In this document: piece after piece, positions 26,964 to 34,655 of the stretch
Layout of the letters: each line of letters opens with the position of its first letter
How positions within the stretch are numbered: the first letter of the stretch is position 1
Assembly (NCBI GenBank): GCA_902517615.1
Contig: CABYCY010000004.1
Coordinates: forward strand, 18,041-82,040
DNA length: 64,000 bases
Direction: 5' to 3'
Origin: an uncultured Pelagibacteraceae bacterium
GTDB lineage: Bacteria; Pseudomonadota; Alphaproteobacteria; Pelagibacterales; Pelagibacteraceae
Translations under genes and position numbers: made by a program
Notes under the pieces: model-generated
Databases searched by the model: none
What the model was told of the DNA's origin: nothing
Seen by the model: the letters and a program-made list of their open reading frames with translations, nothing else

Positions 26964-27740
26964 TTGATTTTTCAATTAGAAAATAAAAGTATTTATGCGT
27001 CTGATGCAGGACAAGGCATAGATCAAAATAAAGAAACTATAGTATTTCTTCATGGAAGTGGCCTCTCACACATTGTTTGGTCTCTAACAGAACAGTTTTT
27101 TTCAAATAATAATTTTAATGTTTTATCTATTGATTTACCTGGACATGGAAATTCAGATGGTCCGTGCTTGGAAAGCATTGAAAAAATAGCTGATTGGCTA
27201 GAAAAAGTTTTTGATAAATTAAATTTAAATAATTTAATTTTAATTGGCCATTCTCAAGGATGTTTAGAGATAATTGAATATGCTCACAAATATAGGAATA
27301 GATTAAAAAAATTAGTTTTTGTTGGTGGCTCAAATAAAATGCCAGTTCATCCAGATTTAATAGACCTAGCAAAAAATGGAGACTCTGATGCAGTTAAATT
27401 AATGATGAAGTGGGGATTTACTGACTCAAAAAAATTTATTGGAGGCAATCCAATAGAAAAAATAATTCAGTCACCTAGAGATATAAGAGACATACTGGCT
27501 GTTGATCTGGTTGCATGTAATAATTACAAAAATGGTTCTGAAGCTGTAAAATCAATAGAATGTCCATCGATGTTAATTTTTGGATCTTTAGATAAGATGT
27601 TAAACTTAGAAGCTGGAAAAAAATTTTCTAGTTTAATCAGTAATTCATCAACCTATATAATAGAAGGTTGTGGTCATATGATTATGATTGAAAAAGCATT
27701 TGAAATGAGAGAGAAAGTTTTAGAATTTTTAAAATCATGA
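26964..27740 (+). CDS. Alpha/beta hydrolase of unknown function within the dmd cluster
   Basis: TTG start with AGGT RBS; FLHGSG, DLPGHG, GHSQG elbow, GCGHM. Confidence 0.85.
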
Positions 27741-28846
27741 AAAATTATTTAATTGCAAAATCAAGAAGACTTAGAAGCACACCATACACTTCTAGAATTG
27801 AGGAACAAGGCGTTACAGCTTATACAACTTATAACCATATGTTACTTCCTGCTGCTTTTGGTTCAATAGAGGACTCTTATCATCACTTAAAAGAGTATGT
27901 TCAAATTTGGGATGTAGCAGCTGAAAGACAAGTTGAAATTTCTGGAAAAGATTCTGCTAAATTAGTTCAGTTAATGACTTGCAGAGATTTATCAAAATCT
28001 AAGGATGGAAGATGTTATTATTGTCCAATTATAGACGACAATGCTGGACTAATTAATGATCCAGTTGTTTTAAAAATAAATGAAAACAAATGGTGGATTT
28101 CTATTGCTGATACCGACGTAATATTATTTGCAAAAGGACTAGCAATTGGAAATAAATTTGATGTAGAAATTATAGAACCCAATGTTGACATTATGGCCGT
28201 ACAAGGTCCGAAATCCTTTAAATTAATGGAAAAAGTGTTTGGAGATAAAATTACAAAACTAAAATTTTTTGGTTTTGATTATTTTGATTTTGGCGGTGCA
28301 AAGCATCTTATTGCACAATCAGGATGGTCCAAACAAGGTGGATATGAAGTTTATGTTCAGAATACTCAAGTTGGTTTAAGATTATATGATCATTTATTTG
28401 AAATTGGAAAAGAATTTAATGTTAAACCAGGGTGTCCTAATTTAATTGAACGTATCGAAAGTGGACTGTTATCCCATGGTAACGATATGGATAATGGAGA
28501 TAATCCTTATGAATGTGGTTTTGATAAATATGTAAATATAGATAGCGATGCCATATTTTTAGGAAAAGAAAAATTAAAAAAAATAAAATTTGATGGAATT
28601 AAAAAAAAATTAATGGGAGTTAAATTTGATATAGAAAAAATTAGTTTAACGGGATCTTTAAATTTAATGGATAATGAAAATAATATCATAGGAGAATTAA
28701 GATCAGCTTGTTATTCGCCTCATTTTAAAAAAGTGATTGGTATCGCTATGATGAAAAAACCACATTGGAATATAGACCAGGACCTAAAAGCTGAGATAAA
28801 TGGTGATATTTGTGGTGGTAAAGTTTGCGATTTACCTTTTATTTAG
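27737..28846 (+). CDS. dmdA: DMSP demethylase (GcvT family)
   Basis: 369 aa; [56 protein letters not shown]-terminal DLPFI, matching my recollection of Pelagibacter DmdA. Confidence 0.95.
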
Positions 28847-28861
28847 TATAACAGCTTTAAA

Positions 28862-29857
28862 ATGAACATAGCTATAATAGGTGCAACAGGTAACGTAGGT
28901 AGAAAAACTCTTGAAGTTTTTAATAAAAAAAACTTTAAGTTTGATGAACTACATCTCGTTGCGTCAGCAAAAAGTGCAGGAAAAAAAATTAAATTTAGAG
29001 ATAAAGATTATGAAATTGAAAATCTGGAAACCTATGATTTTTCAAAAGCTAATATAACCTTTTTTGCAGCAGGAGGAAAAATTGCAGAACAGTATGCTGC
29101 AAAAGCCGCCAAGCATACAACAGTAATCGATAATTCAAGTTATTTTAGAATGGATCCAGAGGTTCCTTTAATTGTTCCTCAAGTAAATGCAGCTGATATA
29201 AAAAATATGAAAAAAAATATTATTGCAAATCCTAACTGTTCTACTGCACAACTTGTTATCGTCCTTAAACCTTTGCATGATTTATTTAAAATAAAGAGAG
29301 TTGTAGTATCAACATATCAATCAGTTTCAGGTGGTGGTAAAAGTCCTATGGATGAATTAATTGAGCAGACCAAACAGCATTTAGAAGGAGAACAAATAGA
29401 GTCAAAAAATTTTACTAAACAAATTGCATTTAATGTTATTCCTCATATCGATGTTTTTGCTGATGATGGATATACAAAAGAAGAAATAAAAATGACAAAT
29501 GAAACAAAAAAAATTTTAGATGACAAAATCGAACTTACAGCAACATGTGTAAGAATTCCTGTATTAGTATCACATTCTGAAGCCGTAAACATAGAGTTTG
29601 AGAAACCATATAATTTAGAAAAAGTTAGAGAAGCTTTGAGTAATGCAGAAGGATGTGAGGTTATCGATAAGAGGGAAGATGGAGGTTATAGTACACCTCT
29701 TGAAGCAACAGGAAAAGATGAGACTTATATATCTAGAATTAGAGAGGACAAAACAAAAGAAAATTCTCTAAATTTATGGATAGTTTCAGATAATTTATTA
29801 AGAGGTGCTGCTTTAAACTCTGTAGAAATTGCAGAAACAATAATTAATTCTAAATAA
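28862..29857 (+). CDS. asd: Aspartate-semialdehyde dehydrogenase
   Basis: GATGNVG, IDNSSYFRM, ANPNCST, TYQSVSGGG, TCVRIPV, SDNLLRGAA. Confidence 0.96.
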   Translation: MNIAIIGATGNVGRKTLEVFNKKNFKFDELHLVASAKSAGKKIKFRDKDYEIENLETYDFSKANITFFAAGGKIAEQYAAKAAKHTTVIDNSSYFRMDPEVPLIVPQVNAADIKNMKKNIIANPNCSTAQLVIVLKPLHDLFKIKRVVVSTYQSVSGGGKSPMDELIEQTKQHLEGEQIESKNFTKQIAFNVIPHIDVFADDGYTKEEIKMTNETKKILDDKIELTATCVRIPVLVSHSEAVNIEFEKPYNLEKVREALSNAEGCEVIDKREDGGYSTPLEATGKDETYISRIREDKTKENSLNLWIVSDNLLRGAALNSVEIAETIINSK

Positions 29858-29861
29858 ATTA

Positions 29862-30242
29862 ATGGCAAATAAACCTTTATCGCCACATATACAAATTTAT
29901 AAATGGCATATCTCTTCTTTAGTATCTATCTCACATAGAATTACTGGAATAATAAATATATTAGCAATAACATTAATCTGTTTTTGGATTGCTCTAATTC
30001 TGCTTGGTGAAAGTAATTATGAGTTAATAAATTTTTTTTTACAGACTTTCATTGGAAAATTTATTTTAATTGGAATAACTTGGTCTTTTAGTTTTCAAAT
30101 GCTTAGTGAGATTAGACATTTAATTATGGATATGGGTTATGGTTTTGAATTACAAACAACAAAGATTACAGGATTGCTCGTTATTTTTGGTTCAATTATT
30201 TTAACAATATTAATTTACTTGTTTGGAAGAGGTATTATTTAA
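29862..30242 (+). CDS. sdhC: Succinate dehydrogenase cytochrome b556 subunit
   Basis: KPLSPHIQIY, SISHRITG, IRHLIMD; 3 TM; position before sdhD/A/B. Confidence 0.93.
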   Translation: MANKPLSPHIQIYKWHISSLVSISHRITGIINILAITLICFWIALILLGESNYELINFFLQTFIGKFILIGITWSFSFQMLSEIRHLIMDMGYGFELQTTKITGLLVIFGSIILTILIYLFGRGII

Positions 30243-30571
30243 TGCCTCCAGTTACAAAAAAATGGTTATTTCTGAAAATTAGTTCATTGATTTTGCTGCC
30301 ATTAATGTTTTGGTTTATAATAAATTTGGTGCATATTTACGATAAAAGTTATCAAGAGGTAGTTGTTTTTTTAACGACTCAACCATCTAAAATTTTAATA
30401 GGTTTATTTTTAGTTCTTGCTTATTTTTTTTCAGCATTAAGTATAAGTGAGGTTTTTGAGGACTATATTAAAGAAGAAAAAATCAAAAATGCCGCAAACA
30501 AAGCCCTTAATTTTTTTGCTATAATCATTCCAACAATTACAATTATTGTAATACTTAACTTAAACACATGA
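30242..30571 (+). CDS. sdhD: Succinate dehydrogenase hydrophobic anchor subunit
   Basis: 3 TM, EVFEDYI quinone-site motif, between sdhC and sdhA. Confidence 0.88.
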
Positions 30572-32343
30572 AAGCATATAATATTATAGATCATGAGTAC
30601 GACGTTGTTGTACTTGGAGCTGGAGGCTCTGGATTAAGGGCAGCCGTTGGACTTAGTGAGGCCGGTTTAAAAACCGCATGTATTTCAAAAGTATTTCCAA
30701 CAAGAAGTCATACATCAGCAGCACAAGGTGGTATTTCAGCTGCTCTTGGAAATATGGGAGAAGATGATTGGAGATGGCATATGTATGATACCGTTAAGGG
30801 AGCTGATTGGTTGGGAGACCAAGATAGTATTGAATATTTATGCAAGGAGGCACCTAAAGCTGTATTAGAGTTAGAGAAATATGGAGTTCCTTTTAGCAGA
30901 ACCGATGAAGGAAAAATTTATCAAAGACCATTCGGTGGAATGACAAAAAATTATGGAAATGGAATTGTTCAAAGAACATGTGCTGCAGCAGACAGAACTG
31001 GTCATGCAATTCTACATACTCTTTATGGGCAAGCATTAAAACATAATACAGAATTTTTTATAGAATACTTTGCTTTAGATTTATTAATGAAAAATGGTGA
31101 ATGCAAGGGGTTAATTGCTTGGAATTTAAATGATGGAACTATTCATAGATTTAGAGCGCATACTGTGATTATTGCAACAGGAGGTTATGGTAAAGTTTAT
31201 TATTCAGCAACTTCTGCTCATACTTGTACAGGTGATGGAAATGCCATGGTTTTAAGAGCTGGACTACCTTTGCAAGATATGGAATTTGTGCAATTTCATC
31301 CAACAGGTATTTATGGACACGGAACACTTATTTCTGAAGGTGTTAGAGGTGAAGGTGGATATTTGGTAAATGCTAAAGGTGAAAGATTCATGGAAAGATA
31401 CGCTCCTAATGCAAAAGATTTAGCCTCTAGAGATGTGGTAAGTAGATCAATGTCGATTGAAATTAACGAGGGAAGAGGGGTTGGTGAAGATAAAGATCAT
31501 GTTCATTTACATTTAAGCCATTTAGATAAAAGTGTAATTGAAAATCGATTACCAGGTATAACTGAGGCAGCAAGATTATTTGCAAATGTAGATGTAACTA
31601 AGGACCCAATTCCAGTAGTTCCAACAGTTCATTACAATATGGGAGGAATTCCAACAAATTATAAAGCAGAAGTATTAACTGTAAATGGTTCAGAAAAAAC
31701 AGTCCCAGGTTTAATGGCAATTGGTGAAGCAGCATGTGTTTCTGTTCATGGAGCCAATAGACTAGGCTCGAATTCATTAATTGATCTAGTTGTGTTTGGA
31801 AGAGCAGCAGCAAAAAGAGCAGCTGAATTAGTAAAACCTGGAACACCTCATGAAGAGGTTCCTGAGTCTGAGACACAAAAATGTCTAGATAGATTTGATA
31901 AATTAAGAAATGCTGAGGGCAGCAATAGCACTGCAGAACTAAGACTTTCAATGCAAAAAACAATGCAATCAAAGTGTGCAGTATTTAGAACTGAAAAGAA
32001 TCTTAAAGAAGGTGTTGATGAAATTAGAAAAACTTACGATGGAATGGAATCAATTTCTGTTAAGGATAGATCTTTAGTTTTTAATACTGATTTGGTTGAA
32101 ACATTGGAATTTGATAATTTAATAAGACAAGCAGTAACGACTGTAGACTCAGCATATCATAGAAAAGAAAGTAGAGGTGCCCATGCCAGGGAAGATTATC
32201 CGAAAAGGGATGATGAAAAATTTATGCAACATACCCTTGCTTGGTGTGATGGAAAAAATACAAAAATAAAATACAGAGAAGTTCACAAATCAACCCTCAC
32301 AAACGAAGTTCAATATTTCCCACCTCAAGAAAGAGTCTATTAA
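30568..32343 (+). CDS. sdhA: Succinate dehydrogenase flavoprotein
   Basis: [16 protein letters not shown] (FAD-His), [33 protein letters not shown]. Confidence 0.98.
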
Positions 32344-33122
32344 TGGTTCAAATAAGTTTACCTAAAAACTCAGAGGTTAAAAAAGGTAAGTACTTTAAGG
32401 ATAAAACTGGTTCAAAAAATCTAAAAAAAGTGAATGTTTACAGATGGGATCCATCGACTGAGGAGAATCCTAGAATAGATACGTATGAAGTTGATATGGA
32501 TAATTGTCCCTCAAAAGTTTTAGATATTTTAAATAAAATTAAAAACGAAATTGATCCTACAATAGCTTATAGAAGATCTTGTGCTCATGGTGTTTGTGGT
32601 TCTTGTGCTATGAATATGGGAGGTAAAAATGGACTTGCTTGTACAACTCCACATGCAGAAATAGATGGAGATATTGATATTTATCCACTACCACATTTAA
32701 AAGTAAAGAGAGATCTTATTGGGGATTTAGATGGTTTGTATAAACAATATCAATCAATTGAACCTTGGTTAAAAAATAACTCTACAAAACAAACTACTGA
32801 AATTTACCAGTCAAAAGAAGACAGGGCAAAACTAGATGGTGCCTATGAATGTATTATGTGCGCTTGTTGTTCTACATCATGCCCGAGTTATTGGTGGAAT
32901 GGAGATAAGTACTTAGGACCAGCAGTGCTCTTACAAGCTTATAGATGGATTGTAGATAGTAGAGATGAAGAAAGGAAAGCAAGATTAAAAAAAGTTGCTG
33001 ATGAATTAAAACTTTACAGATGTCATACTATTTTAAATTGTACAAATGCATGTCCTAAAGGCTTGAATCCTGCAAAAGCTATAGCTGAAATAAAAAAAAT
33101 GCTCGCAATGACTAATCTTTAA
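32343..33122 (+). CDS. sdhB: Succinate dehydrogenase iron-sulfur subunit
   Basis: [38 protein letters not shown]. Confidence 0.98.
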
Positions 33123-33161: not shown

Positions 33162-34655
33162 ATGAATTTAATAGAGCATTTCGTAAACGGAAAAATAAAT
33201 CCGGGATCCTCAGATAAAAAAGCGAAAGTATTCAATCCAGCAACTGGAGATCAGGAATCAGAAGTAAGACTGGCTACAAAATCTGATCTAGATAATGCAG
33301 TTGCAATAGCAAAGAAAGCATTTGAAACTTGGTCTTTAAAACCAGCTCTCCAAAGAGCAAGAGTAATATTTAAGTTTAAGGAATTGATAGAAAGAAATTC
33401 TGATGAACTTACAAAAATGATAGTTTCTGAGCATGGTAAAGTTTATGAGGATGCAAGAGGTTCATTAACAAGAGGACTTGAAGTAGTAGAGTTTGCATGT
33501 GGAATCCCACATTTATTAAAAGGTGAATTTTCTGAAAATGTAGGAACAAATGTTGACAGTTGGTCGATTAGACAACCATTAGGCGTTGTTGCAGGTATTA
33601 CTCCATTTAATTTTCCAGCGATGGTTCCAATGTGGATGTTTCCAATAGCAATAGCTTGTGGAAACACATTTATTCTTAAACCTTCAGAAAAGGATCCGTC
33701 GTGTGCGATAAAATTGGCTGAATTACTTTCTGAGGCTGGCCTTCCTGATGGAGTTTTTAATGTAGTAAATGGAGATAAAGAAGCAGTTGATGCAATTTTA
33801 GAAAACAAAGATATTAAAGCTGTAAGTTTTGTTGGATCAACACCTATTGCTAAATATATTTATGAAAATTCTGCAAAAAATGAAAAAAGAGTGCAAGCTC
33901 TAGGAGGAGCCAAAAATCATTTGGTTGTAATGCCAGATTGTGATTTAGATGGTGCAGTTAATGGTTTAATGGGCGCAGCATATGGTTCAGCTGGAGAAAG
34001 ATGTATGGCTCAATCAGTTGCAGTTGCAGTTGGAGATATTGGAGACGAACTTGTAGCTAGATTATCAAAAAAAGCAGAAGCTTTAAAAGTAGGTCCAGGT
34101 ATGGATAAAACCTCTGAAATGGGACCCTTGGTTACAAAAGAACATTTAGAAAAAGTAAAAAGCTATGTTGATTTAGGTGTTCAAGAGGGAGCTAAGCTAG
34201 TAGTTGATGGAAGAAATTTAAAACTTCAAGGTTATGAAAATGGTTTCTATATAGGTGGCTGCTTATTTGATCATGTAAACAAAGATATGAAAATTTACAA
34301 AGAAGAAATATTTGGTCCAGTTTTATCAGTCGTGAGAGTTAAAACTTTTGAGGATGCTGCAAAGTTGATTAATGATCATGAATATGGAAATGGTGTAAGT
34401 ATTTATACAAGAGATGGTGACGCGGGCAGAACTTTTGCAAGTAAAATTCAAATAGGAATGGTAGGAATAAATGTACCAATTCCTGTACCAATGGCTTTTC
34501 ATAGTTTTGGTGGATGGAAAAGATCTTTATTTGGAGATAGTGGGATGCATGGCATGGAAGGAATAAAATTTTATACTAAACTTAAAACAGTAACATCTAG
34601 ATGGCCTTCTGGTGTCCGTTCAAATGCAGAATTTGTAATGCCAACAATGAAATAA
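33162..34655 (+). CDS. mmsA: CoA-acylating (methyl)malonate-semialdehyde dehydrogenase
   Basis: ITPFNFPAMVPMWM, KPSEKDP, SFVGSTP, GGAKNH, YGSAGERCMA, EEIFGPV, FGGWKRS. Confidence 0.93.
   Translation: MNLIEHFVNGKINPGSSDKKAKVFNPATGDQESEVRLATKSDLDNAVAIAKKAFETWSLKPALQRARVIFKFKELIERNSDELTKMIVSEHGKVYEDARGSLTRGLEVVEFACGIPHLLKGEFSENVGTNVDSWSIRQPLGVVAGITPFNFPAMVPMWMFPIAIACGNTFILKPSEKDPSCAIKLAELLSEAGLPDGVFNVVNGDKEAVDAILENKDIKAVSFVGSTPIAKYIYENSAKNEKRVQALGGAKNHLVVMPDCDLDGAVNGLMGAAYGSAGERCMAQSVAVAVGDIGDELVARLSKKAEALKVGPGMDKTSEMGPLVTKEHLEKVKSYVDLGVQEGAKLVVDGRNLKLQGYENGFYIGGCLFDHVNKDMKIYKEEIFGPVLSVVRVKTFEDAAKLINDHEYGNGVSIYTRDGDAGRTFASKIQIGMVGINVPIPVPMAFHSFGGWKRSLFGDSGMHGMEGIKFYTKLKTVTSRWPSGVRSNAEFVMPTMK

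What the first reader, a model, noticed from the sequence alone, without database searches (positions are those of the whole stretch)
29862..30571. Succinate dehydrogenase anchors appear to lack both heme-b axial histidines: predicted naturally heme-free complex II
Seen: SdhC reads FSFQMLSEIRHLIMD. Anchoring on IRH against E. coli AYH84VVVG88IRH91 puts Gln79 (codon 30096) at the His84 ligand position and Glu83 at the heme-packing Gly88. SdhD reads [15 protein letters not shown]. Anchoring on DY against E. coli H71AWIG75MWQVLTD82Y83 puts Phe63 (codon 30428) at His71 and Ser67 at Gly75. The only SdhD His (H31) lies near the end of helix 1. Quinone-site residues (SdhC Ser/Arg in SISHR, SdhD Asp-Tyr) are kept. 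Established: His84 and His71 ligate heme b556 in type C SQR, and engineered heme-free E. coli variants still assemble and reduce quinone. Inference: four coordinated changes remove the ligands and fill the pocket, consistent with an iron-sparing complex II in an oligotrophic marine bacterium.
Basis: partly seen in the sequence, partly recalled or inferred. Interest (0 to 1): 0.75.

Follow-up and report, generated by a model that had tools for sequence, protein, structure and literature searches.

The report
SAR11 succinate dehydrogenase without heme ligands
The succinate dehydrogenase of this Pelagibacter (SAR11) genome, and of its whole genus, has replaced both histidines that normally hold the heme in its membrane anchor, so the ocean's most abundant heterotroph very probably runs a heme-free complex II, known so far from yeast and a few protists and not found reported for a bacterium in the papers I could search.

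Summary
Window 29862-33122 is a compact sdhCDAB operon of a Pelagibacter (SAR11) genome. Three independent alignments put SdhC Gln79/Glu83 at E. coli His84/Gly88, and SdhD Phe63/Ser67/Lys12 at His71/Gly75/Arg20.

Outside the order, one genome from each of 50 alphaproteobacterial families keeps the SdhC His in 50 of 50 and the SdhD His in 49 of 50. All 46 Pelagibacter-type sequences read have Gln+Glu in SdhC and Phe, Tyr or (once) His plus Ser/Thr/Asn in SdhD.

Relatives show a stepwise path:
- Fonsibacter and several other SAR11 genera are canonical.
- Two genera have lost only the SdhD His but already carry SdhC Gly88Glu and SdhD Arg20Lys.
- The SdhC His then changed to Gln at least twice.
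- A sister family has the mirror state, SdhC Tyr with SdhD His, like heme-free yeast complex II.

The anchors stay under purifying selection, the quinone-site residues are intact, and the genome still makes heme and encodes cytochrome b.

Best reading (about 0.8): a functional heme-free succinate:ubiquinone oxidoreductase. In it Glu83-Lys12 and Glu70-Arg26 may stand in for the heme propionates (inferred). The iron-sparing motive is plausible but untested.

I found no paper reporting this.

The parts
29862..30242 (+). sdhC, large membrane anchor subunit (126 aa), normally cytochrome b556
   Evidence: ORF. TIGR02970 1e-35 and PF01127 2.5e-26. The AF2 model has pLDDT 89.6 and its best Foldseek matches are E. 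coli SQR chain C, TM 0.77-0.80.
30096..30098 (+). SdhC Gln79 (CAA) at the position of the axial heme ligand His84 of E. coli (His98 of chicken)
   Evidence: It is Gln in all 23 genus sequences and in the Pelagibacter-type named loci. It is His in 50/50 outside families.
30108..30110 (+). SdhC Glu83 (GAG) at the position of Gly88, which packs against the heme
   Evidence: This is the only SdhC column with fully disjoint residues between the ligand-less clade (Glu 28/28) and its canonical relatives (Gly 10/10). Outside alphaproteobacteria have Gly 49/50.
29925..29939 (+). SdhC Ser22-Ile-Ser-His25-Arg26, equivalent to E. coli Ser27...His30-Arg31 (quinone site and proximal-propionate partner), retained
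   Evidence: Invariant in all groups. Roles in E. coli are taken from PMC3290573.
30117..30119 (+). SdhC His86, equivalent to E. coli His91 (H-bonds the distal propionate; not an axial ligand), retained
   Evidence: Role from PMC3290573.
30242..30571 (+). sdhD, small membrane anchor subunit (109 aa)
   Evidence: ORF. TIGR02968 2.8e-13. The order-wide profile hits 1nek_D at 1.8e-6. The AF2 model has pLDDT 91.8 and its best Foldseek matches are E. coli SQR chain D and M. smegmatis Sdh2 SdhD.
30428..30430 (+). SdhD Phe63 (TTT) at the position of the axial heme ligand His71
   Evidence: In the genus it is Phe 18, Tyr 4, His 1. It is His in 49/50 outside families.
30440..30442 (+). SdhD Ser67 (AGT) at the position of Gly75
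   Evidence: Ser/Thr 28/28 in the ligand-less clade against Gly 10/10 in canonical relatives and 48/50 outside.
30275..30277 (+). SdhD Lys12 (AAA) at the position of Arg20 (distal-propionate partner); proposed partner of SdhC Glu83
   Evidence: Lys 28/28 against Arg 10/10. The role of Arg20 is from PMC3290573. The pairing itself is inferred.
30449..30451 (+). SdhD Glu70 (GAG) at the position of Gln78 (proximal-propionate partner); proposed partner of SdhC Arg26
   Evidence: Glu throughout the order, including the canonical members. The pairing is inferred.
30461..30466 (+). SdhD Asp74-Tyr75, equivalent to E. coli Asp82-Tyr83 (quinone site), retained
   Evidence: Invariant in all 100 sequences.
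30568..32343 (+). sdhA flavoprotein (591 aa); its start overlaps the sdhD stop by 4 bases
   Evidence: Used with SdhB for the tree.
32343..33122 (+). sdhB iron-sulfur protein (259 aa); keeps the CHTILNC motif, whose His is equivalent to E. coli SdhB His207
   Evidence: Translation. The role of His207 is from PMC3290573.

Best explanation
This is the single respiratory succinate:ubiquinone oxidoreductase (sdhCDAB) of a Pelagibacter. It descends from an ordinary one-heme type C enzyme, but its membrane anchor no longer binds heme b.

**Electron path.** Electrons go from FAD through the three iron-sulfur clusters of SdhB to ubiquinone. The quinone site is made by SdhB, SdhC (Ser22, Arg26) and SdhD (Asp74, Tyr75), and all of these residues are kept. 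In E. coli and yeast the heme is not needed for this path.

**What replaces the heme (inferred).** The heme is thought to cross-link the four-helix core. I propose that side chains now do this:
- SdhC Gln79 and SdhD Phe63 (with Ser64 and Ser67) occupy the space of the iron and porphyrin.
- SdhC Glu83 pairs with SdhD Lys12, standing in for the distal propionate.
- SdhD Glu70 pairs with SdhC Arg26, standing in for the proximal propionate.

**Order of events.** The loss arose stepwise inside the SAR11 family. First came SdhD His-to-Phe together with SdhC Gly88Glu, SdhD Gly75Thr/Ser and Arg20Lys. After that the now useless SdhC His drifted to Gln at least twice.

**Shown:** the ligand and pocket substitutions, their fixation, their phylogenetic pattern, intact quinone-site residues, and purifying selection.
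**Inferred:** the absence of heme, the salt bridges, and the order of events.
For: **Register.** Confirmed against chicken, E. coli and a PDB profile hit.

**Conservation of the normal state.** His/His plus Gly/Gly is held in 50/50 (SdhC) and 49/50 (SdhD) alphaproteobacterial families, and in 136 of the 150 best 50%-identity-cluster SdhD representatives.

**Fixation of the new state.** The genus has Gln+Glu in all 23 sequences and in 23 further Pelagibacter-type named loci.

**Diagnostic columns.** Between the ligand-less clade and its canonical sister genera, the fully disjoint columns are only SdhC Gly88Glu and, in SdhD, positions 18, 20 (Arg to Lys), 30, 58, 73 and 75 (Gly to Ser/Thr). Other heme-contact positions also change: SdhD 19 Gln to Leu, and 72 Met/Leu to Ser.

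**Tree built without the anchor columns.** The SdhA+SdhB tree groups g1, g8, g9 and g10 at 100/100 support. It needs at least 4 changes of the SdhC ligand.

**Selection.** Anchor dN/dS is 0.08-0.2, the same range as in canonical clades.

**One enzyme only.** There is one Sdh_cyt pair in the genome. Ferrochelatase and cytochrome b are present, so the loss is specific to complex II.

**Precedent.** Yeast complex II has no heme by cryo-EM and spectra. Its His-heme-His unit is replaced by a direct His156-Tyr108 H-bond. Sdh4 Glu112 replaces the Gly four residues after the ligand and bridges to Arg97 in place of a propionate (PMC13066397, PMC12508127). E. coli Arg20/Arg31 and His91/Gln78 are pseudo-symmetric propionate partners (PMC3290573). 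Engineered heme-free E. coli SQR assembles and works, as cited in those papers.
Against: - No biochemical datum exists for any SAR11 enzyme.
- The title of a 2001 study cited in PMC13066397 says that E. coli axial-ligand mutants retain heme. That paper is not held in the library and I could not read it. Ligand loss alone is therefore not proof, especially for the one-ligand relatives.
- The heterodimer could not be modelled, so the Glu83-Lys12 and Glu70-Arg26 contacts are untested.
- The covariation rests on one or a few evolutionary events.
- One genus member (G138) has His at SdhD position 63.
- The placement of the canonical genus g10 is unresolved. Monophyly of the ligand-less genera is not rejected but is also not shown (p-AU 0.093).
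Confidence: 0.8

Rival explanations
1. Heme b is still bound, held by non-histidine or displaced ligands or as a five-coordinate heme. Candidates would be SdhC His25 or His86, Met80, SdhD Tyr61, or the Tyr/His seen at SdhD position 63 in some species.
For: The title of a 2001 study cited in PMC13066397 says E. coli axial-ligand mutants retain heme (that paper is not held and I could not read it). SdhC His25, the equivalent of E. coli His30, lies about 3.5 A from the porphyrin in E. coli (PMC3290573). The propionate partners Arg26, His86 and SdhB His are all kept.
Against: - Both ligands are gone, and a Glu and a Ser/Thr replace the two glycines that let the porphyrin pack.
- Candidate substitute ligands are not conserved. 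SdhC position 80 is Ile/Met/Val/Thr. SdhD 61 is Tyr/Phe. SdhD 63 is Phe/Tyr/His. SdhD His31 is mostly Ser.
- His25 and His86 are equally present in all heme-binding homologues, where they are not ligands.
- In yeast a single His-to-Tyr change with similar pocket changes already gives a heme-free enzyme (PMC12508127, PMC13066397).
- The SdhC His was lost repeatedly once the SdhD His was gone, as expected if it had no ligand role left.
Confidence: 0.1
2. The heme is absent, but the loss is neutral or a by-product of genome and proteome streamlining, not an adaptation to scarce iron. Once side chains could stabilise the anchor, the off-pathway heme simply became dispensable.
For: - The heme is off the catalytic path and dispensable in E. 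coli and yeast (PMC13066397, PMC12508127).
- It is only 1 of 10 Fe atoms per complex (established cofactor content).
- The genome keeps heme synthesis and cytochrome b.
- Several SAR11 genera and other small-genome alphaproteobacteria keep both ligands.
Against: Departures from bis-His ligation arose several times within SAR11 but in only 1 of 50 other alphaproteobacterial families. That clustering suggests something in this lineage's biology favours it. The freshwater relative Candidatus Fonsibacter lacus is canonical.
Confidence: 0.45
3. The anchor is decaying, and the enzyme is losing membrane attachment or quinone reduction, so this would be a degenerate complex II.
For: SdhC and SdhD evolve faster than SdhA and SdhB: 70-86% against 91-96% amino-acid identity in the same genome pairs.
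Against: - Canonical clades show the same faster rate in the anchors.
- Anchor dN/dS is 0.08-0.2, with no rise in the ligand-less clades.
- There are no stops or frameshifts in about 100 genomes.
- The quinone-site residues are invariant.
- The replacement residues themselves are fixed.
- This is the only Sdh_cyt pair in the genome.
- Both AF2 models are confident.
Confidence: 0.02

Closest known systems
Saccharomyces cerevisiae mitochondrial complex II (Sdh1-4), shown heme-free by cryo-EM (PDB 9KPS/9KQ3, 9QDL/9QDM; PMC12508127, PMC13066397)
   Same: - Type C architecture, with two anchors of three transmembrane helices each.
- An axial His is replaced.
- The Gly four residues after a ligand is replaced by Glu, which in yeast bridges to the Arg that normally holds a heme propionate.
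- The quinone site is kept.
- The enzyme descends from a heme-binding ancestor.
   Different: - Yeast loses only the SdhD-side ligand (Tyr108) and keeps Sdh3 His156. Pelagibacter loses both (Gln and Phe).
- The Gly-to-Glu change is on the opposite, pseudo-symmetric subunit: SdhC Glu83 here, Sdh4 Glu112 in yeast.
- This case is bacterial and the cell has no paralogous anchor.
- The sister SAR11 family, with SdhC Tyr and SdhD His, is the closer mirror image of yeast.
- Heme absence is measured in yeast and only inferred here.
E. coli SdhCDAB (type C SQR, PDB 1NEK/2WDQ) and its engineered heme-free variant (Tran et al. 2007, as cited in PMC12508127 and PMC13066397)
   Same: Same operon order, the same protein families (TIGR02970, TIGR02968) and the same fold (TM 0.77-0.80 for SdhC). 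The quinone-site Ser/Arg and Asp-Tyr are the same. The engineered variant shows the enzyme can assemble and reduce quinone without heme.
   Different: The natural E. coli enzyme binds heme b556 through SdhC His84 and SdhD His71, with Gly88 and Gly75. The window has Gln79/Glu83 and Phe63/Ser67. The E. coli heme-free form is a laboratory mutant without compensating substitutions.
E. coli quinol:fumarate reductase FrdABCD (type D, no heme; PDB 1L0V/1KF6)
   Same: Two membrane anchors and no heme.
   Different: A different anchor lineage. SdhC scores only 18.6 bits on PF02313 against a cut-off of 25, and Foldseek E is 0.6 against 1kf6_D. FrdABCD is a menaquinol-linked anaerobic enzyme. The SAR11 enzyme derives from type C within its own order, not from Frd.
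Complex II of Tetrahymena thermophila and Perkinsus marinus (no heme in the membrane domain, as cited in PMC13066397)
   Same: A natural loss of the anchor heme in a type C descendant.
   Different: These are highly divergent eukaryotic enzymes embedded in supercomplexes with extra subunits. The SAR11 enzyme is a plain four-subunit bacterial operon.

Membership tests
Type C succinate:quinone oxidoreductase (SdhCDAB, one heme b) | Four subunits encoded as sdhC-sdhD-sdhA-sdhB | tested here: met
   ORFs at 29862-33122 with overlapping starts and stops.
Type C succinate:quinone oxidoreductase (SdhCDAB, one heme b) | Two anchor subunits of the Sdh_cyt family, each with three transmembrane helices | tested here: met
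   PF01127, TIGR02970 and TIGR02968 all score above their cut-offs. The AF2 models show three long helices each, and the best fold matches are E. coli SQR chains C and D.
Type C succinate:quinone oxidoreductase (SdhCDAB, one heme b) | Bis-histidine ligation of one heme b (E. coli SdhC His84 and SdhD His71) | tested here: not met
   Gln79 and Phe63 sit at those positions. No other conserved His lies in helix II of either subunit.
Type C succinate:quinone oxidoreductase (SdhCDAB, one heme b) | Proximal quinone-site residues (SdhC Ser27 and Arg31; SdhD Asp82 and Tyr83) | tested here: met
   Ser22, Arg26, Asp74 and Tyr75 are invariant.
Type D (E. coli FrdCD-like, heme-free anchors) | Anchors belong to the FrdC/FrdD families | tested here: not met
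   PF02313 scores only 18.6 bits against a cut-off of 25, and FrdC gives no hit. The SdhA+SdhB tree places the operon within SAR11 type C relatives.
Type D (E. coli FrdCD-like, heme-free anchors) | No heme in the membrane domain | not testable with these tools
   Only the loss of ligands and the remodelling of the pocket are shown. Heme content needs spectroscopy or a structure.
Heme-free descendants of type C complex II (yeast Sdh3/Sdh4 type) | Loss of at least one axial His in an otherwise type C anchor | tested here: met
   Both are lost.
Heme-free descendants of type C complex II (yeast Sdh3/Sdh4 type) | A compensating polar residue at the Gly four residues after a ligand, taking over a propionate contact | tested here: inconclusive
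   Glu83 is present, fixed, and covaries with SdhD Arg20Lys. The contact itself could not be modelled, because only single chains can be predicted here.
Heme-free descendants of type C complex II (yeast Sdh3/Sdh4 type) | Heme shown to be absent experimentally | not testable with these tools
   No data for SAR11 were found in the searchable papers.

The most novel reading that the evidence does not exclude
SAR11 holds a natural graded series of complex II anchors: canonical His/His (Fonsibacter and others), one ligand lost on either subunit, and both lost (Pelagibacter). The series was produced by repeated independent loss, possibly driven by iron or heme economy in the surface ocean. It would make the long-debated role of the complex II heme testable by swapping anchors between close relatives. 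It would also lower estimates of the iron and heme quota of the ocean's most abundant heterotroph.
Probability: 0.3. Interest if true: 0.78.

Novelty: new variant of a known kind. Interest (0 to 1): 0.66.

Why it matters
What the heme b of complex II is for has been argued for decades: a structural staple, an electron sink, or suppression of reactive oxygen. Natural heme-free type C enzymes were established only in 2025-2026 for yeast, plus a few protists.

If Pelagibacter also lacks this heme, the most numerous heterotrophic bacteria in the sea run their TCA cycle and respiratory link without it. They would do so with a different, mirror-image set of compensating residues.

Close relatives with canonical, half-lost and fully lost ligands give a ready-made comparative system for experiments. 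The finding bears on cellular iron and heme budgets in iron-poor oceans. It also matters for annotation: these genes are labelled "cytochrome b556 subunit" by family models, although they probably bind no heme.

Tried and rejected
- **Heterodimer model.** I looked for natural SdhC-SdhD fusions to fold the two anchors as one chain. The long hits P0001, P0002 and P0121 are internally duplicated SdhC or SdhD, that is, assembly chimeras. No complex model was possible. AF2 on the single chains only confirms the fold and the helix positions.
- **SdhD against the PDB.** The single SdhD sequence found nothing. A profile of order-wide sequences was needed.
- **Papers not held.** PMC2084287 (heme-free E. 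coli variant) and PMC2888824 (E. coli axial-ligand mutants and yeast) are not in the library. Their content is cited only through PMC12508127 and PMC13066397.
- **dN/dS.** dS is saturated at about 1, so the ratios are rough. One pair (L200-L202, SdhD) picked a wrong ORF and was ignored.
- **Monophyly of the ligand-less genera.** The free tree leaves g8, g9, g10 and g1 as a polytomy. The AU test gives p = 0.093, so neither a single origin nor g10 nested inside can be claimed.
- **Fumarate-reductase (type D) origin.** Rejected on family scores and on the tree.
- **His31 of SdhD and His16 of SdhC as substitute ligands.** Rejected. His31 is Ser in most of the genus. His16 also occurs in the canonical genus g10 and is Gln or Asn in most ligand-less g8/g9 sequences.
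Full report
**What is there.**

Window 29862-33122 holds a compact sdhC-sdhD-sdhA-sdhB operon on the + strand. The sdhC stop and the sdhD start share one base. sdhD and sdhA overlap by four bases.

SdhC (126 aa) matches TIGR02970 "succinate dehydrogenase, cytochrome b556 subunit" at 1e-35. SdhD (109 aa) matches TIGR02968 at 2.8e-13. Both are above the curated cut-offs, and both also hit Pfam Sdh_cyt. It is the only Sdh_cyt pair in the 1.32 Mb genome.

Related loci carry record titles such as "Pelagibacteraceae bacterium" and "Candidatus Pelagibacter sp. HIMB1695". The organism is therefore a SAR11 Pelagibacter.

**Check of the observation.**

The quoted peptides and codons are exact. CAA at 30096 is Gln79, GAG at 30108 is Glu83, TTT at 30428 is Phe63, and AGT at 30440 is Ser67.

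The register was tested three ways:
- HMMER aligns SdhC to chicken SDHC (2fbw_C, E = 1.8e-14), with SFQmlsEIRH under SYHtwnGIRH.
- E. coli sdhC and sdhD were fetched from NC_000913. MAFFT and hmmalign place Gln79 at His84, Glu83 at Gly88, Phe63 at His71 and Ser67 at Gly75.
- The single SdhD sequence finds nothing in the PDB. A profile of 19 SdhD sequences from the order hits E. coli 1nek_D at E = 1.8e-6. The alignment has no gaps over 98 residues and a constant offset of 8. The His71Met mutant chain 2wu5_D differs exactly at the profile's His column.

PDB titles ("SdhC His84Met mutant", "SdhD His71Met mutant") and PMC3290573 confirm which residues these are in E. coli.

AF2 models are confident: pLDDT 89.6 for SdhC and 91.8 for SdhD. 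Gln79, Glu83 and His86 lie in the middle of SdhC helix 63-90. Phe63 to Tyr75 lie in SdhD helix 49-75. The best fold matches are E. coli SQR chains C and D.

**How unusual it is.**

I read SdhC and SdhD from one genome of each of 50 alphaproteobacterial families outside the order. The SdhC His is present in 50/50 and the SdhD His in 49/50. The two glycines are present in 49/50 and 48/50.

Another 44 named genomes outside the SAR11 order (L140-L183 without L163, mostly alphaproteobacteria with a few gammaproteobacteria) are all canonical.

Among the 150 best SdhD representatives of 50%-identity clusters, drawn from 1.84 billion proteins, 136 have His+Gly. Thirteen have Phe or Tyr with Ser or Thr, and all thirteen carry the Pelagibacter motif ISE[VI]FEDY. 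One has His+Ser.

**Pattern within SAR11.**

- In the window's genus (g1), all 23 sequences have Gln+Glu in SdhC. In SdhD they have Phe (18), Tyr (4) or His (1), plus Ser/Thr and Lys at the Arg20 position. The Pelagibacter-type named loci show the same states.
- Genera g8 and g9 keep the SdhC His. They already have SdhC Gly88Glu and SdhD Phe, Thr and Lys. One g8 sublineage has also changed the His to Gln.
- Genera g5, g6, g7 and g10 are fully canonical. The locus of Candidatus Fonsibacter lacus (L135) is also canonical and carries the g6-type motif.
- In the sister family, g3 is canonical. g2 and g4 have SdhC Tyr plus Cys/Ser and keep the SdhD His and Gly.
- One single-cell genome (AG-913-N02) has SdhC Tyr+Glu and SdhD Asn.

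A tree built from SdhA+SdhB only, so that the trait's own columns are left out, supports [g5, g6, g7] and [g1, g8, g9, g10] at 100/100. Within g8, the Gln form is sister to His forms. The order of g8, g9, g10 and g1 is unresolved. Holding g1+g8+g9 together is not rejected (p-AU 0.093). At least four changes of the SdhC ligand state are needed on this tree.

The most economical story is this. The SdhD ligand went first, together with Gly88Glu, Gly75Thr/Ser and Arg20Lys. The SdhC His, no longer needed, was then replaced more than once. Bis-His ligation was also lost separately, in a different way, in the sister family.

**Is the enzyme still working?**

- No stops or frameshifts were seen in any of the roughly 100 genomes read.
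- The quinone-site residues Ser22, Arg26, Asp74 and Tyr75 are invariant.
- SdhB keeps the CHTILNC motif.
- Anchor dN/dS is 0.08-0.2 in the ligand-less clades, the same range as in canonical clades. dS is saturated, so the values are rough.
- The replacement residues are themselves fixed.
- The genome encodes ferrochelatase and cytochrome b. Heme b is therefore made and used elsewhere, and the change is specific to complex II.

**Mechanism proposed.**

In E. coli, the distal heme propionate is held by SdhC His91, SdhB His207 and SdhD Arg20. The proximal propionate is held by SdhD Gln78 and SdhC Arg31. Arg20/Arg31 and His91/Gln78 are pseudo-symmetric pairs (PMC3290573).

In heme-free yeast complex II, the His-heme-His link is replaced by a direct His156-Tyr108 hydrogen bond. 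Sdh4 Glu112 replaces the Gly four residues after the ligand and bridges to Sdh3 Arg97 in place of a propionate (PMC13066397). Spectra also show no heme (PMC12508127).

Pelagibacter carries the mirror image. The Gly-to-Glu change is on SdhC (Glu83), and its pseudo-symmetric basic partner on SdhD has changed from Arg to Lys (Lys12). SdhD Glu70 faces SdhC Arg26. Other heme-contact positions are also remodelled: SdhD 19 Gln to Leu, and 72 Met/Leu to Ser.

I therefore propose that two carboxylate-to-base pairs and a filled core replace the heme as the staple of the four-helix bundle. Electrons would pass from the [3Fe-4S] cluster straight to ubiquinone. These contacts are inferred. Only single chains could be modelled, and apparent SdhC or SdhD "fusions" in metagenomes are assembly chimeras.

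**Comparison with what is known, and novelty.**

The enzyme works like a type C SQR and descends from one, but it fails the defining bis-His feature. It is not an FrdCD-type (type D) enzyme by family membership or by descent.

The nearest established cases are yeast complex II, the divergent enzymes of Tetrahymena and Perkinsus, and engineered E. coli variants (PMC12508127, PMC13066397).

Six full-text searches found no paper describing missing heme ligands in SAR11 or in any natural bacterial type C enzyme. The 2023 complex II review still describes class C as heme-binding.

An earlier, unchecked note of this scan reports loss of both histidines in many Brevundimonas species. I could not test it. 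If true, SAR11 is not the only bacterial case, and an ocean-specific explanation is weakened.

**On iron sparing.**

The heme is one of ten iron atoms in the complex, from the established cofactor content: 2+4+3 Fe in the clusters plus one heme. The saving is therefore modest.

- In favour of some lineage-specific pressure: repeated departures from bis-His within SAR11, against one in fifty other families, and the canonical state of freshwater Fonsibacter.
- Against a simple iron story: canonical SAR11 genera, canonical small-genome alphaproteobacteria in the sample, retained heme synthesis, and the Brevundimonas lead.

I rate adaptive iron or heme economy at about 0.3, and neutral or streamlining loss as at least as likely.

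**Limits.**

- No biochemical evidence exists for any SAR11 enzyme.
- No model of the complex could be made.

**Verdict.**

This is a new bacterial variant of the recently recognised heme-free type C complex II, with a clear evolutionary series and a testable structural hypothesis.

Noticed in passing
L024-L032, L026, L049 and L163 (sister family of the order, genera g2 and g4): SdhC has Tyr at the His84 position and Cys/Ser at Gly88, while SdhD keeps His71 and Gly75. This is the mirror image of the yeast Sdh3-His156/Sdh4-Tyr108 pair, so these enzymes may also be heme-free. Genus g3 of the same family is canonical.
   Followed up: partly
L137 (uncultured Pelagibacteraceae isolate AG-913-N02): A third combination: SdhC Tyr+Glu, and SdhD Asn at the His71 position with Gly75 and Arg20 kept.
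   Followed up: no
L099 / L214 (genome G208, a 1.1 Mb single-contig alphaproteobacterium outside the order, on a very long branch): The only one of 50 outside families without the SdhD His (Phe, with Ser at Gly75). Its SdhC keeps His84 but has Thr at Gly88 and Tyr at His91. The organism was not identified.
   Followed up: no
L052 / L205 (genome G138, same genus as the window): SdhD has His at position 63 (the His71 position) in an otherwise Pelagibacter-type background with SdhC Gln+Glu. Four other species have Tyr there. The position behaves as a variable aromatic site, not as a ligand.
   Followed up: partly
P0001, P0002, P0121 (ENA metagenome proteins): Over-long SdhC or SdhD homologues of 186-202 aa are internal duplications of the same subunit. 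They are most likely assembly chimeras of co-occurring SAR11 strains, not SdhC-SdhD fusions.
   Followed up: yes
L120 (MAG 'Candidatus Pelagibacterales bacterium isolate TrH-25oct19-165'): It carries the intermediate state, SdhC His+Glu with SdhD Phe+Thr. The habitat of this MAG is not given in the title. If it is a lake genome, the ligand-less state is not confined to the sea.
   Followed up: no
window 29862-30571 and its homologues in public collections: Source names for these proteins read "cytochrome b subunit", and TIGR02970 names them "cytochrome b556 subunit". For Pelagibacter this label is probably wrong as to heme.
   Followed up: no
window 27737-28846, 28862-29857 and 33162-34655: Neighbours of the operon, judged only from the translations and not checked with any tool: an aminomethyltransferase-like ORF (a first-reader note calls it dmdA), a probable aspartate-semialdehyde dehydrogenase just upstream, and an aldehyde dehydrogenase-like gene downstream. 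No extra small membrane ORF that could be a fifth subunit was seen.
   Followed up: no
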